Part shown: positions 42,001-44,596 of the stretch, in pieces
Layout: every line of letters begins with the position of its first letter
How positions within the stretch are numbered: position 1 is the stretch's first letter
DNA from: a virus
Lineage: Duplodnaviria > Heunggongvirae > Uroviricota > Caudoviricetes
IMG/VR virus record: IMGVR_UViG_2877251553_000007
DNA length: 45,334 nt
Reading direction: 5' to 3' (one strand)
Made by a program: the position numbers

Positions 42001-44596
42001 ACCCGCCGTTTTCTCGTACTTACTGATAGTGATCTCGACCTTCCCTTTCGGGATAACCGGTCCCCACTCCACCAGCATTCTTTTCACCTGACTGTCGTCT
42101 TCCCACACACCCGCGTGGGTCAGGGCGTCAAACAGCGCCTTGTTATAGTTGTCCAGATCGCGGATCCGGTTATCCGGAGGAAACAACACGATCTCCACTG
42201 AAGCAGGTGCCGACGTTGGTTTCGGCAGACGACGTAACTGCTCAACTATTGCTGCGCACGCCGCGCTCTGGAATTTTCGCCCCGCCGCGCTTATCAGGCT
42301 CTAACCAGCAAACGCCCCTTTGTTGGGGTGTCGCCAGTACGTGTTCACGCTGGGCGGAAAAGGCAGTATTAGCTTCATGCCACCATCTCCCTGACCAGTT
42401 TTTCCGCCTGCTGGCGAACCTGCGCCAGAAATGCCTCACCACATGCCTCAAGTTCATCGCGCCCGATGTAGCTGATTGCCGGTCCCTTCCAGGTCTTGTC
42501 AAAAACAGCAATAGCACCAGCGAAGAAAGCACCTGTTGGCACCTGCTTTTCGTCTTTCGGGATAAACCAGGCAGGCAGTTCAAAACCAATACGCCCGCGA
42601 ATAAAAGCAATATGATCTGCATCTTCCGGCCACCACACTTCGCTGGTGGCAGCTTTGATCAGGAAAACATAGCGCCCGCCTTTATCACGCATGGCACTGG
42701 CATGCTTCATGATGTAACGCATGCCGATGATGTATTGCCCCTCATGCTGACTGGCGCGGCTGTACGGGGGATTGCCAAAGGCAGCACCTTTAAGCTCCGC
42801 AAGACGTTCTGACCAGTCATGCGCCAGCGCGTTGTCTTCCGCCGTGTAATACGCGGCACATTTGGCGTTATCACCGTCAGTGAACAGATCCAGAACAAAC
42901 GGACCAAACAAGGTGTTAATTCCCCAGAAAATGTTGTCCGGCGTGCGCCACTGATCGCCCACTTCCTTCAGTTCATGGGCTGGTTTGTTCCGCAGTTCCA
43001 CCAGCGCCTGGCAATATTTATTACTCATTAAGCCCCACGTAATTCCCTGACAGATACCACTCATCACCCGATACAGCGCGCTTACTGCTTTTCCGTAAAC
43101 ACTGCTCACGACGCGCCAGAAAATTGTTTCGTTCTGGCTGGGAGTGGCTTTCACGGAATGCCGCCATCCACACCGTTGCAGCACGACGGTATAAGCCCCT
43201 GGACTCCAGTTCTTCCGCCTGGCGGGTCAGGCACAAAATCTCCCGCGGGTCGTTAGTGCCGACATAGAAATTGCGCACAGGTCTGGTTTCACGAACTGGT
43301 TGCGGTTCCGCCTCCTGCGCTCTCTCAGTCAGGCGCGGGAAATGTCTGCGTGTATCCCCTTCACAACGGTGAGCCACACGACCACTCTGACGTAATTTGC
43401 TTGCTGACTGCAGAACGCACTGCCGTGAGTAACCTGTAAAAGCATCCGCAATGTCTCCGGAAGTACACCCCGGATGGGCTTCAATGAATTTCTGAACTTC
43501 ATTCAAAAGACTCATAATCCCCCCTGAATCCTGCCGGGATCTGGCTGTAGTCCACGTTGTCGTAACTGGCTTTGAAGTACGGGTCCTCGCGTCTGGCTGC
43601 AGATACCGCAGGAACTTCCCAGGATTCTTCGAAATGACGATCTGGACCAAAGAACGTGACAGCCTGTTTCACAAATTGTGTGCCGCTATTGCCCATCGCA
43701 GATACCCAGCCCGCGTAGCGTTTCACACCTTCCAGCATGGTTTCGGGGTTTACCCCCTCGTTCAAACGGGCTTTCCAGGCTTTGAAGGCTGCAGATTTTG
43801 AATTGCCACCAGCACGTTTGGGATATGCCAGCCATGCCTGCTCAAACTCCGGAGAGTATTCCGGTCGGTTTGAACGAACTCGCACGGACTCATCAACTGA
43901 TGCACCAACAGCTATTGGTTCATTGACTGGTTCTTTGACTGGTTCAAAAGAGTGACTGGTTCTGGGTGAATCTCCTACACTACCCCTTGGTGCAACTCCT
44001 GCACTACCTGGTGAATTTGCTGCACCAGATAGTGAATTATTTGCACTACCCCCTAGTGAATCTCCTGCACCATCAAGATGAAGGAGATAGATATTACTTG
44101 AGTTACCTTTTTCACCTTTCCGGGTGACTTTTTTTACCAGCCCGGACTCACAAAGGGCCGCAATATGATTCATCACAGAACGTTTGCTAATCTCGCACTG
44201 GTCAGCAATATGCTGGTAGCTGGGCCAGCACTCACCCTGATCGCTGGCATTATCAGCCAGCTTAATCAGAACCAGTTTTCGCAATGGATTTCCCACTCGA
44301 ATTTTCATCGCTTTAACCATCAGCTCCATACTCATGCAGCACCTCCGAGATGCTTCATGTTTTTTCCGGAGCGAAAGGCTATAAGCGGCATACTGATGCG
44401 GTAATTACGGCCCAGCGGTTCACAAATCACCTTCTGACATTCACGGTCAACCAGGCTAACACGTAGAACATGCCCTGCAGGCGTGGTGTACCACTGACCC
44501 GGACGAGGACAACGGAAAGTCTGATTGGTAAACCGTTTGAAAATATTCCGGATCATTTGCGCCCCCTTACCTCTGAAGGGTTCAGCGACAAATTTA

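What the first reader, a model, noticed from the sequence alone, without database searches (positions are those of the whole stretch)
43920..44065. Iteron-like direct repeats inside the O-like replication gene
The central part of the O-like gene contains GACTGGTTC three times and four about 20-bp units of the form TGCAC(T/C)ACC...GTGAAT in direct orientation. In lambda the origin iterons lie inside gene O and are bound by O protein; this looks like the same arrangement with different iterons.
Basis: partly seen in the sequence, partly recalled or inferred. Interest (0 to 1): 0.4.

Follow-up and report, generated by a model that had tools for sequence, protein, structure and literature searches.

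The report
Phage replication origin inside initiator gene
The repeats are real and are most likely the replication origin of an SfV/ST64B-type prophage, built into the middle of the gene for the protein that binds it, as in phage lambda but with unrelated parts; this is a familiar design in a very common, clinically relevant phage module whose origin I found no published description of.

Summary
Observation confirmed and sharpened. Inside the 278-aa initiator gene (43499-44335, minus strand) lie five, not four, tandem 19-bp units (TRGTGCA-N5-TTCACYA; 43964-44072; spacing 24/21/21/24). Each has dyad symmetry. Next to them are three exact GAACCAGTCA 10-mers (43924-43962).

The 19-mers behave as DNA elements, not codon repeats:
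- They are palindromic.
- In relatives the same unit is read in other reading frames or lies inverted.
- Copy number runs from 1 to 9 in near-identical proteins.
- Their sequence changes together with the protein's recognition helix.

The 10-mers belong to a roughly 40-bp block that stays almost identical at the nucleotide level, synonymous sites included, in phages of Escherichia, Klebsiella, Aeromonas, Vibrio and Microbulbifer. It is unchanged whatever the iteron type, reading frame, C-terminal domain or helicase partner.

Relatives sit in the O position next to lambda-P-like, DnaC-like or DnaB genes. One carries a genuine lambda-O C-terminal domain.

So the lambda-like reading is supported as a mechanism: type-specific iterons plus a common segment. 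The protein itself is an HTH_36 winged-helix initiator, not a lambda O homologue, and the AT-rich tract is only modest. No binding or replication was tested. The host prophage here is IS-disrupted and decaying.

The parts
43499..44335 (-). Replication initiator gene, 278 aa. It is ~98-99% identical to SfV orf39 and mEp460 gp43 and 87% to ST64B sb42; the region is 97.9% identical in DNA to the 'Eru6' Stx-phage representative Stx2a_WGPS2.
   Evidence: ORF. Pfam HTH_36 E 1.8e-11. phrog_270 E 1.8e-88. Phage and E. coli matches. A 1-nt deletion at ~43519/20 removes the usual TGA stop and adds 6 aa.
44072..44335 (-). Codes for the N-terminal winged-helix DNA-binding domain (aa 1-88). The recognition helix is aa ~51-64 (ISKRSVMNHIAAL) and the beta-hairpin wing is aa 67-85.
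   Evidence: AF2 pLDDT 80-93 with elements H3-11, H17-29, H40-47, H51-64, E67-73, E79-85. Foldseek returns winged-helix hits only. Across the family, aa 1-47 are 66-96% conserved and aa 48-88 only 37-67%.
44054..44072 (-). Iteron 1: TGGTGCAGGAGATTCACTA
44030..44048 (-). Iteron 2: TAGTGCAAATAATTCACTA
44009..44027 (-). Iteron 3: TGGTGCAGCAAATTCACCA
43988..44006 (-). Iteron 4: TAGTGCAGGAGTTGCACCA
43964..43982 (-). Iteron 5: TAGTGTAGGAGATTCACCC. It carries a C->T change at 43977 in the conserved GTGCA half-site relative to mEp460 and most relatives.
43917..43968 (-). Family-wide common block: CACCCAGAACCAGTCACTCTTTTGAACCAGTCAAAGAACCAGTCAATGAACC. It overlaps the right arm of iteron 5. It is proposed to be the common origin core (unwinding or loading region, or a host-factor site).
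   Evidence: Conserved core CACC(C)AGAACCAGTCACTCTTTTGAACCAGTCAnnGAACC in 21 iteron-type representatives. Codon identity at identical residues is 56/57 in the block against 129/334 in the N-domain. A 100% identical 40-mer occurs in a Microbulbifer element. It is the least stable segment in the family average.
43953..43962 (-). GAACCAGTCA copy 1, read as (R)TSH; frame 1
43936..43945 (-). GAACCAGTCA copy 2, read as EPV; frame 0
43924..43933 (-). GAACCAGTCA copy 3, read as EPV; frame 0
44073..44140 (.). AT-rich flank (36.8% GC) on the gene-upstream side of the array. The least stable 40-mer of the neighbourhood is 44080-44120. It codes for the wing of the winged helix. It is conserved only at the protein level in relatives, so its role in the origin is uncertain.
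   Evidence: 99.7th percentile of helix instability in the window. Synonymous variation in relatives is visible.
43499..43870 (-). Codes for the exchangeable C-terminal domain (aa ~156-278). It is presumed to recruit the helicase or primosome.
   Evidence: AF2 helices 162-214, pLDDT ~70. PHROG matches to 'DnaD-like helicase loader' and 'primosomal protein' families on aa 146-272. Ten unrelated C-domain types follow the same block in relatives.

Best explanation
The five 19-bp dyad repeats are iterons. They are binding sites for dimers of the winged-helix N-terminal domain of the protein encoded by this same gene. Together with the adjacent conserved block that holds the GAACCAGTCA 10-mers, they form the replication origin of an SfV/ST64B/mEp460-type temperate phage.

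Proposed mechanism, all inferred by analogy with lambda:
1. The initiator is translated from the early rightward transcript that reads through the origin.
2. Its N-domains occupy the iterons. These are spaced 21-24 bp apart, about two helical turns, so all dimers face the same side and form an O-some-like nucleoprotein complex.
3. The strain opens the neighbouring, less stable common block.
4. The C-terminal domain recruits the helicase. That domain is tethered by the disordered linker which the origin itself encodes.

In this phage type no loader or helicase gene follows the initiator. Host DnaB-DnaC, or a primosome route, would therefore have to be engaged directly.

Shown here: the repeats, their symmetry, DNA-level conservation, co-variation with the recognition helix, domain layout and genomic position.

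Inferred: binding, unwinding and helicase recruitment.

In this particular window the element sits in an IS-disrupted, decaying prophage and may no longer fire.
For: 1. Reality and symmetry. Five sites and none elsewhere in 45 kb. Arm complementarity is 27/35 against ~8.8 expected.

2. DNA-level rather than protein-level selection.
- The same or an equivalent iteron is read in different frames within one gene: L069 frames 1,2,1,0,1; also L016, Vibrio 236O40-1, and Vibrio K249 with GTGACAGAGAGTCAC x4, one copy shifted.
- In a Microbulbifer element the same 19-mer lies inverted relative to the gene and encodes SESPALG instead of GAGDSLG.
- 20 of 122 protein-selected representatives mix two or three reading modes of the unit in one linker.

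3. Population footprint in 30 SfV-type sequences. The GTG/CAC cores are nearly invariant (pi 0.006), against 0.032 for the N-domain and 0.058 for the spacers. Variation is mirror-symmetric, at positions 2 and 18. Third-codon-position diversity is about 8-fold lower than in the N-domain.

4. Specificity co-variation. 35 recognition-helix groups each have their own palindromic repeat. L058 is 96% identical to the window in aa 1-47 but 44% in the helix and wing, and its iterons are entirely different.

5. Copy number runs from 1 to 9 in near-identical proteins, as with lambda (4) and Stx phages (6) (PMC7466680).

6. Position. The array and block encode the AF2-disordered linker, aa 91-157, between the winged helix and the C-domain. 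The array spans 32-44% of the gene, against 39-48% in lambda.

7. Replicative context. Relatives are followed by a lambda P homologue (PF06992, E 8e-30), a DnaC-like ATPase, a DnaB helicase or a primase-helicase. Relative L026 carries a C-domain 41% identical to lambda O aa 179-270 (E 8e-23).

8. Same logic as the lambda family. Lambda, PhiR5_1 and SEN34 have different iterons followed by a shared AT-rich/palindrome segment. Here, different iterons are followed by the shared block.

9. Less stable DNA flanks the array on both sides.
Against: - There is no experimental evidence of binding or of origin activity for this module. I found none in the searchable literature. The Eru paper, which includes this type as Eru6, states that nothing is known about the proteins involved in replication of the Eru phages (PMC8951638).
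- The segment after the iterons is only 42% GC, at the ~90-92nd percentile of instability. It is not a pronounced AT tract like lambda's 22% GC.
- There are no DnaA boxes or IHF sites nearby, and no loader gene in this phage type, so helicase delivery is unexplained.
- Helix-iteron co-variation is confounded by physical linkage: both lie within ~200 bp.
- The 120 IMG/VR loci were selected by the block sequence itself. Block conservation must therefore be judged from the protein-selected sets only.
- In this window the upstream control region is replaced by an IS element, and iteron 5 and its spacer carry substitutions.
Confidence: 0.8

Rival explanations
1. The repeats are operator sites for autoregulation only. 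The winged-helix protein binds inside its own gene to block or tune transcription, and the true origin lies elsewhere.
For: Iterons of many plasmids also act in autorepression (established knowledge). The array lies inside the transcribed gene. No strong AT tract, DnaA box or IHF site adjoins it.
Against: Four to nine phased sites placed exactly at the domain linker, followed by a block conserved independently of the protein frame, is origin architecture. No site of this kind occurs at any promoter in the 45 kb. The same layout is retained whatever the helicase or loader partner.
Confidence: 0.07
2. The repeats are codon-level tandem duplications made by slippage. They merely encode a flexible Gly/Ser/Ala-rich linker and have no DNA-level role.
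For: In the window all five units are in the same frame, since the spacings are multiples of 3. They encode a low-complexity segment predicted to be disordered. Copy number varies by whole units.
Against: Every unit is palindromic. Relatives read the same unit in other frames and in inverted orientation, giving unrelated peptides. Third-position diversity is lower than overall diversity, and the symmetric cores are invariant. The three exact GAACCAGTCA copies in the window are themselves read in two frames.
Confidence: 0.03
3. The palindromes act as RNA hairpins in the mRNA, for translational or stability control, or as recombination hot spots. On this view the conserved block is only a homology 'linker' that lets phages swap initiator halves.
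For: Palindromes can fold. Mosaic junctions do fall at the block: tblastn matches to the N-part end at aa 136-142, C-part matches begin at 136-155, and P0060 is a 24B-N/SfV-C chimera.
Against: RNA folding of 43900-44090 is not better than shuffles (z -1.27). Arm sequences are conserved between copies while the centres vary, and mismatches are not compensated. Recombination explains mosaicism but not near-perfect synonymous conservation at 48% protein identity, nor conservation across frames.
Confidence: 0.05

Closest known systems
Phage lambda ori within gene O (O-some; iterons plus AT-rich region), and the other iteron types of the lambda O family
   Same: Tandem dyad-symmetric ~19-bp repeats spaced 20-24 bp apart, in the middle of the initiator gene, between an N-terminal origin-binding domain and a C-terminal recruiting domain. 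Iterons are type-specific and are followed, in the direction of transcription, by a segment common to phages of different specificity; this was checked for lambda, PhiR5_1 and SEN34. Copy number varies. The gene occupies the same place in the early right operon. Some relatives are followed by a lambda P homologue, or even carry the lambda O C-domain.
   Different: The N-domain is Pfam HTH_36, not Phage_rep_O, with no detectable homology to lambda O. The iteron sequence is unrelated. The common segment is a GAACCAGTCA direct-repeat block of 42% GC, not a 22% GC purine-rich tract plus palindrome. No P-like gene follows in the SfV type. In the window all iterons share one reading frame; lambda's use three.
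Replisome-organizer or DnaD-like phage initiators with the origin inside their own gene (for example SPP1 G38P/oriL and lactococcal or Lactobacillus phages such as TP901-1 and A2). This comparison is from my own knowledge and was not tested here.
   Same: A winged-helix N-domain, direct repeats inside the gene, and a C-domain that hands over to a loader or helicase. There is a weak DnaD_N match (PF21984, 24.3 bits, cutoff 27), and DnaD N-domain 2v79 appears among the fold hits (E 0.03).
   Different: The DnaD_N match is below threshold. The hosts are Gammaproteobacteria. The conserved common block has no described counterpart that I know of.
Iteron plasmids (pSC101, F, P1, R6K, RK2 Rep proteins)
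   Same: A winged-helix initiator binds phased direct repeats next to an unwinding element that contains short direct repeats.
   Different: There is no Rep_3 or other plasmid Rep domain and no DnaA boxes. The iterons lie inside the coding sequence and have dyad symmetry. The element is phage-borne.
'Eru6' replication region of Shiga-toxin phages (Fagerlund et al. 2022, PMC8951638)
   Same: The window's module is 97.9% identical in DNA to the Eru6 representative Stx2a_WGPS2, AP012537.
   Different: That paper defines the type by gene content only and states that nothing is known about the proteins involved in replication of the Eru phages. No origin or iterons are described.

Membership tests
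Lambda-type origin (ori embedded in the initiator gene) | Four or more tandem direct repeats with internal dyad symmetry inside the initiator gene | tested here: met
   Five 19-mers; 27/35 dyad positions; unique in the window.
Lambda-type origin (ori embedded in the initiator gene) | The repeats lie in the linker between an N-terminal DNA-binding domain and a C-terminal recruiting domain | tested here: met
   AF2: winged helix aa 1-88, disordered aa 91-157, helical C-domain. Mosaic junctions fall at the block.
Lambda-type origin (ori embedded in the initiator gene) | A pronounced AT-rich unwinding region directly after the iterons | tested here: inconclusive
   The block side is 42% GC, at the ~90-92nd percentile of instability. 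The other flank is 37% GC, at the 99.7th percentile. Lambda's tract is 22% GC. In the family average the block is the least stable segment.
Lambda-type origin (ori embedded in the initiator gene) | Type-specific iterons followed by a segment common to different specificities | tested here: met
   The lambda family itself shows this. This family shows it too.
Lambda-type origin (ori embedded in the initiator gene) | The initiator binds the iterons and the fragment supports replication | not testable with these tools
   Needs EMSA or footprinting and a mini-replicon assay.
Lambda O protein family (Pfam Phage_rep_O) | Sequence homology to lambda O | tested here: not met
   No Phage_rep_O hit. BLASTP E 0.036 over 22 aa. 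hhalign probability 1.3%.
Lambda O-P module | A P-type helicase loader gene immediately downstream | tested here: not met
   The next genes are PerC-like, Dam methylase, RusA and KilA-N. Relatives with other C-domains do have PF06992 lambda P, E 8e-30.
HTH_36 (PF13730) phage replication initiators / phrog_270 | A profile match above the curated threshold | tested here: met
   44.1 bits against a cutoff of 25. phrog_270 E 1.8e-88. 7,752 cluster representatives have E <= 1e-3 to the N-domain.
DnaD-like replisome organizers | A DnaD N-terminal domain match | tested here: inconclusive
   PF21984 at 24.3 bits, below the cutoff of 27. Fold hit 2v79 at E 0.03 among generic winged helices.
Iteron-plasmid Rep/ori | A Rep_3-type initiator and DnaA boxes beside the iterons | tested here: not met
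   No such Pfam hit. No DnaA box with at most 1 mismatch in 43400-44650.
Eru6 Stx-phage replication region | Near-identity to the type sequence AP012537 | tested here: met
   97.9% identity over 1,058 bp. The type list comes from PMC8951638.

The most novel reading that the evidence does not exclude
The ~40-bp block CACC(C)AGAACCAGTCACTCTTTTGAACCAGTCAnnGAACC is a distinct, previously undescribed 'common origin core'. It has two to four GAACCAGTCA direct repeats at 17- and 12-bp spacing. It is kept almost identical at the DNA level in phages of Enterobacteriaceae, Aeromonas, Vibrio and Microbulbifer, whatever the iteron specificity, reading frame, C-terminal domain or helicase/loader type.

Its partner cannot be the variable recognition helix, the C-domain or the helicase. 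It would therefore have to be one of two things: the invariant N-terminal 47 residues of the initiator, for example binding single-stranded DNA in the opened origin, or a host factor shared by these Gammaproteobacteria. The block would also serve as the crossover point for shuffling initiator halves.
Probability: 0.45. Interest if true: 0.55.

Novelty: new member of a known kind. Interest (0 to 1): 0.4.

Why it matters
This module is very common. DNA matching it occurs in 2,721 of 5,426 complete E. coli genomes, and the N-domain family has thousands of cluster representatives. It drives replication of Stx2-converting phages of the 'Eru6' type, for which the literature says nothing is known about replication (PMC8951638). 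Toxin output depends on phage replication (PMC7466680).

A concrete origin prediction makes specificity and incompatibility between co-resident prophages directly testable. The prediction comprises the iteron consensus, a table pairing recognition helices with iterons, and the common block.

The block also shows that strict nucleotide-level constraint can hide inside a coding region that specifies only a disordered linker.

Tried and rejected
- **Host-factor sites.** No DnaA box (TTATNCACA, at most 1 mismatch) and no IHF site in 43400-44650. GATC density is not raised.
- **Promoter in the origin.** None found. One antisense terminator-like hairpin, at chance level.
- **RNA element.** Fold z-score -1.27. 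No Rfam family in the region.
- **Homology to lambda O.** Rejected.
- **Solved structures by sequence.** No meaningful hit: the four at E <= 1 are spurious. Foldseek gave only generic winged helices, none with E <= 1e-3, so the C-domain's function stays unassigned. Pfam found nothing for this C-domain type.
- **Literature.**
  - The block sequence appears in no relevant paper.
  - Searches for SfV or ST64B origins and for iterons in O-like genes found nothing specific.
  - Weigel & Seitz 2006 (phage replication modules) is not held, so an earlier in-silico mention cannot be excluded.
- **Mantel-type helix-iteron statistic.** Considered and dropped, because physical linkage alone would produce a correlation. 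I used mosaic contrasts instead.
- **Population diversity of the C-domain.** Not usable, because the ungapped alignment breaks after nt 420.
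Full report
**1. What is there**

The finding lies inside a 278-aa ORF on the minus strand, 43499-44335. Read on the gene strand, the region holds five tandem 19-mers:
- TGGTGCAGGAGATTCACTA
- TAGTGCAAATAATTCACTA
- TGGTGCAGCAAATTCACCA
- TAGTGCAGGAGTTGCACCA
- TAGTGTAGGAGATTCACCC

They span 44072 down to 43964, with start-to-start spacing 24, 21, 21, 24. Three exact copies of GAACCAGTCA follow at 43962-43924.

Each 19-mer is an imperfect palindrome, TRGTG-N9-CACYA. In total 27 of 35 arm positions are complementary, against about 8.8 expected. No other placement in the 45 kb reaches this. An arms-only pattern finds these five sites and nothing else; chance expectation is 0.25.

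**2. The gene**

- Pfam HTH_36: E 1.8e-11.
- PHROG 270, 'replication initiation protein': E 1.8e-88.
- Weak DnaD_N match, below threshold.
- The protein is ~98-99% identical to SfV orf39 and the mEp460 replication protein, and 87% to ST64B sb42.
- The DNA is 97.9% identical to Stx2a_WGPS2, the type sequence of the 'Eru6' replication region (PMC8951638).
- Matching DNA occurs in 2,721 of 5,426 complete E. coli genomes.
- AlphaFold places a confident winged helix at aa 1-88, a disordered stretch at aa 91-157 and a helical C-domain.
- The iterons (aa 88-124) and the 10-mer block (aa 125-140) therefore encode the disordered linker.
- There is no detectable homology to lambda O.

**3. Are the 19-mers DNA elements or codon repeats?**

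Relatives chosen by protein similarity all carry a tandem repeat at the same place, but with a different sequence. Every one is palindromic:
- 24B: GGGGCAGGAGCTGCCCC
- Klebsiella klb_E: TGCCACCAGATGGCA
- Vibrio D67: AGTGACAAAATGTCAC
- Vibrio K249: GTGACAGAGAGTCAC

Several lines show that the DNA, not the peptide, is what is kept:
- In K249, 236O40-1, L016 and L069, copies of one repeat lie in different reading frames within one gene.
- In a Microbulbifer element the window's own iteron type occurs inverted relative to the gene and encodes SESPALG instead of GAGDSLG.
- Of 122 representatives selected only by N-domain similarity, 20 mix two or three reading modes in one linker.
- Among 30 distinct SfV-type sequences the GTG/CAC cores are almost invariant (pi 0.006; N-domain 0.032, spacers 0.058).
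- In the same set, variation is mirror-symmetric at positions 2 and 18, and third-codon positions vary about 8-fold less than in the N-domain.
- Copy number runs from 1 to 9 in otherwise near-identical proteins.

This rules out a purely protein-level repeat.

**4. Who binds them?**

Across the family, aa 1-47 stay 66-96% identical. The recognition helix and wing (aa 48-88) drop to 37-67%, and the iterons change with them. L058 is 96% identical to the window in aa 1-47 and 44% in aa 48-88, and has unrelated iterons.

Helices of the S(K/R)RSV(M/I)xH type go with GTG(C/A)A half-sites. SRSTVKSH goes with GGGCAG. SKSAVRxH goes with (G/A)TGCC.

Linkage confounds any formal statistic. The conserved-variable-variable-conserved mosaic is nevertheless what a cognate protein-site pair predicts.

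**5. The GAACCAGTCA block is a second, different element**

In protein-selected relatives from Aeromonas, Vibrio, Klebsiella and 24B-type phages (about 48-68% protein identity over the matched region), codons of identical residues match in 56 of 57 cases inside the block. In the N-domain the figure is 129 of 334.

The core is CACC(C)AGAACCAGTCACTCTTTTGAACCAGTCAnnGAACC. It is shared by 21 iteron types and is 100% identical over 40 nt in Microbulbifer.

- In the window the three 10-mers are read in two frames: RTSH and EPV.
- In P0199 the same 17- and 12-bp spacing is read as PESVTLLNQSMNQS.
- Other lineages read it as EPVxEPVxEP.
- A block-derived peptide is present in at least 98 of 122 representatives.
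- It is degenerate in mEp021 and absent from relatives with only ~30-36% N-domain identity: K249, Va_PF430-3 and PotUPM1.

**6. Replicative context and modularity**

After the block come ten unrelated C-domain types. One of them, in L026, is 41% identical to lambda O aa 179-270 (E 8e-23).

The next gene in relatives is one of the following:
- a lambda P homologue (PF06992, E 8e-30);
- a DnaC/IstB-like ATPase;
- a DnaB helicase;
- a primase-helicase;
- in the SfV type, no replication gene at all (a PerC-like gene follows).

Chimeras such as P0060 (24B N-part with SfV C-part) join at the block. The unit of N-domain, iterons and block therefore behaves as one origin-recognition cassette attached to interchangeable recruiting domains. 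This is the two-domain logic of lambda O.

**7. Comparison with lambda, tested**

Lambda's iterons are spaced 20, 24 and 23 bp, span 39-48% of gene O, and are followed by a 22% GC tract. PhiR5_1 and SEN34 have different iterons but share lambda's downstream segment.

Here the array spans 32-44% of the gene. Its downstream neighbour is the common block, at 42% GC. In the family average that block is the least stable 30-mer (z +1.0 to +1.5), while the iterons are stable.

In the window the single least stable 40-mer is on the other side, at 44080-44120 (99.7th percentile). That stretch is conserved only as protein.

**8. Verdict**

The element is not a member of the lambda O family.

The role of the block is inferred. 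It could be an unwinding or loading site, a host-factor site, or a target of the invariant N-terminal 47 residues. How a helicase is delivered without a loader gene is unknown. No DnaA box, IHF site, promoter or RNA structure was found.

**9. Local state**

The prophage is decaying:
- An IS3-family transposase abuts the operon at 44594-45334.
- A second IS lies at ~33.4-34.4 kb.
- RusA is truncated, and KilA-N and the SASA esterase are split.
- The initiator has lost its stop codon through a 1-nt deletion.
- Iteron 5 and its G5 spacer carry substitutions.

The origin here may therefore be a relic.

**10. Limits**

- The 120 IMG/VR loci were picked by the block sequence. They show diversity around the block but not its frequency.
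- Weigel & Seitz 2006 could not be read, so an earlier in-silico mention cannot be excluded.

Noticed in passing
window 43519-43520: A 1-nt deletion relative to mEp460 (GGGGG[T]GATTATGAG) removes the initiator's TGA stop. The protein gains 6 residues (DYESFE), and its overlap with the start of the PerC-like gene changes.
   Followed up: partly
window 43977 and 43987: Iteron 5 has GTGTA where mEp460 and most relatives have the near-invariant GTGCA. The G5 spacer before it is AGGGG. This may be decay of the origin in a defective prophage.
   Followed up: partly
window 43983-43987; loci L012-L126: The spacer between the last two iterons is GGGGG or CCCCC in 17 of 21 iteron-type representatives, whatever the iteron sequence. 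Unexplained.
   Followed up: no
window 44594-45334 (-): An IS3-family transposase (rve domain, E 8.5e-32) runs off the window end. It lies directly upstream of the small ORF and initiator operon, where relatives carry the Rha/antirepressor and cro/cI region.
   Followed up: partly
window 33479-34411 (+): A second IS3-family element: an ALIL frameshift pseudoknot (Rfam RF01497, 116 bits) and an orfB with HTH_21 and rve domains, inserted between the SASA esterase remnants and the lysis genes.
   Followed up: no
window 41161-42198 (-) and 35916-37089 (-): RusA is truncated to 69 aa. KilA-N is split into two overlapping ORFs, and the SASA-type esterase is also split. These are signs of a decaying prophage.
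   Followed up: no
window 37578-38104 (-): A tRNA cluster (Arg-tct, Arg-tcg, Met-cat) followed by the STnc100 sRNA (119.8 bits), downstream of an N6_N4 DNA methylase gene (38154-39203).
   Followed up: no
window 44332-44556 (-): A 74-aa ORF (phrog_1153, function unknown) overlaps the initiator start by 4 nt. It accompanies the SfV-type module but not the 24B-type relatives.
   Followed up: no
window 44112-44136 (+): A terminator-like hairpin plus T7 run, antisense to the initiator, inside the AT-rich wing-coding stretch. The count is at chance level (1 found, 1.2 expected).
   Followed up: no
L136 (Microbulbifer sp. MI-G 43.5-kb circular 'plasmid', 2143-4442): This marine Cellvibrionales element carries the identical 40-nt block and the window's iteron type in inverted orientation, followed by a DnaB helicase.
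   Followed up: partly
L131 (phage mEp021, 1495-2493): Its initiator has two long (~39-bp) repeats instead of 19-mers, and only a degenerate block (AATCAGTCA-5-AACCAGTAA). It may be an intermediate form.
   Followed up: no
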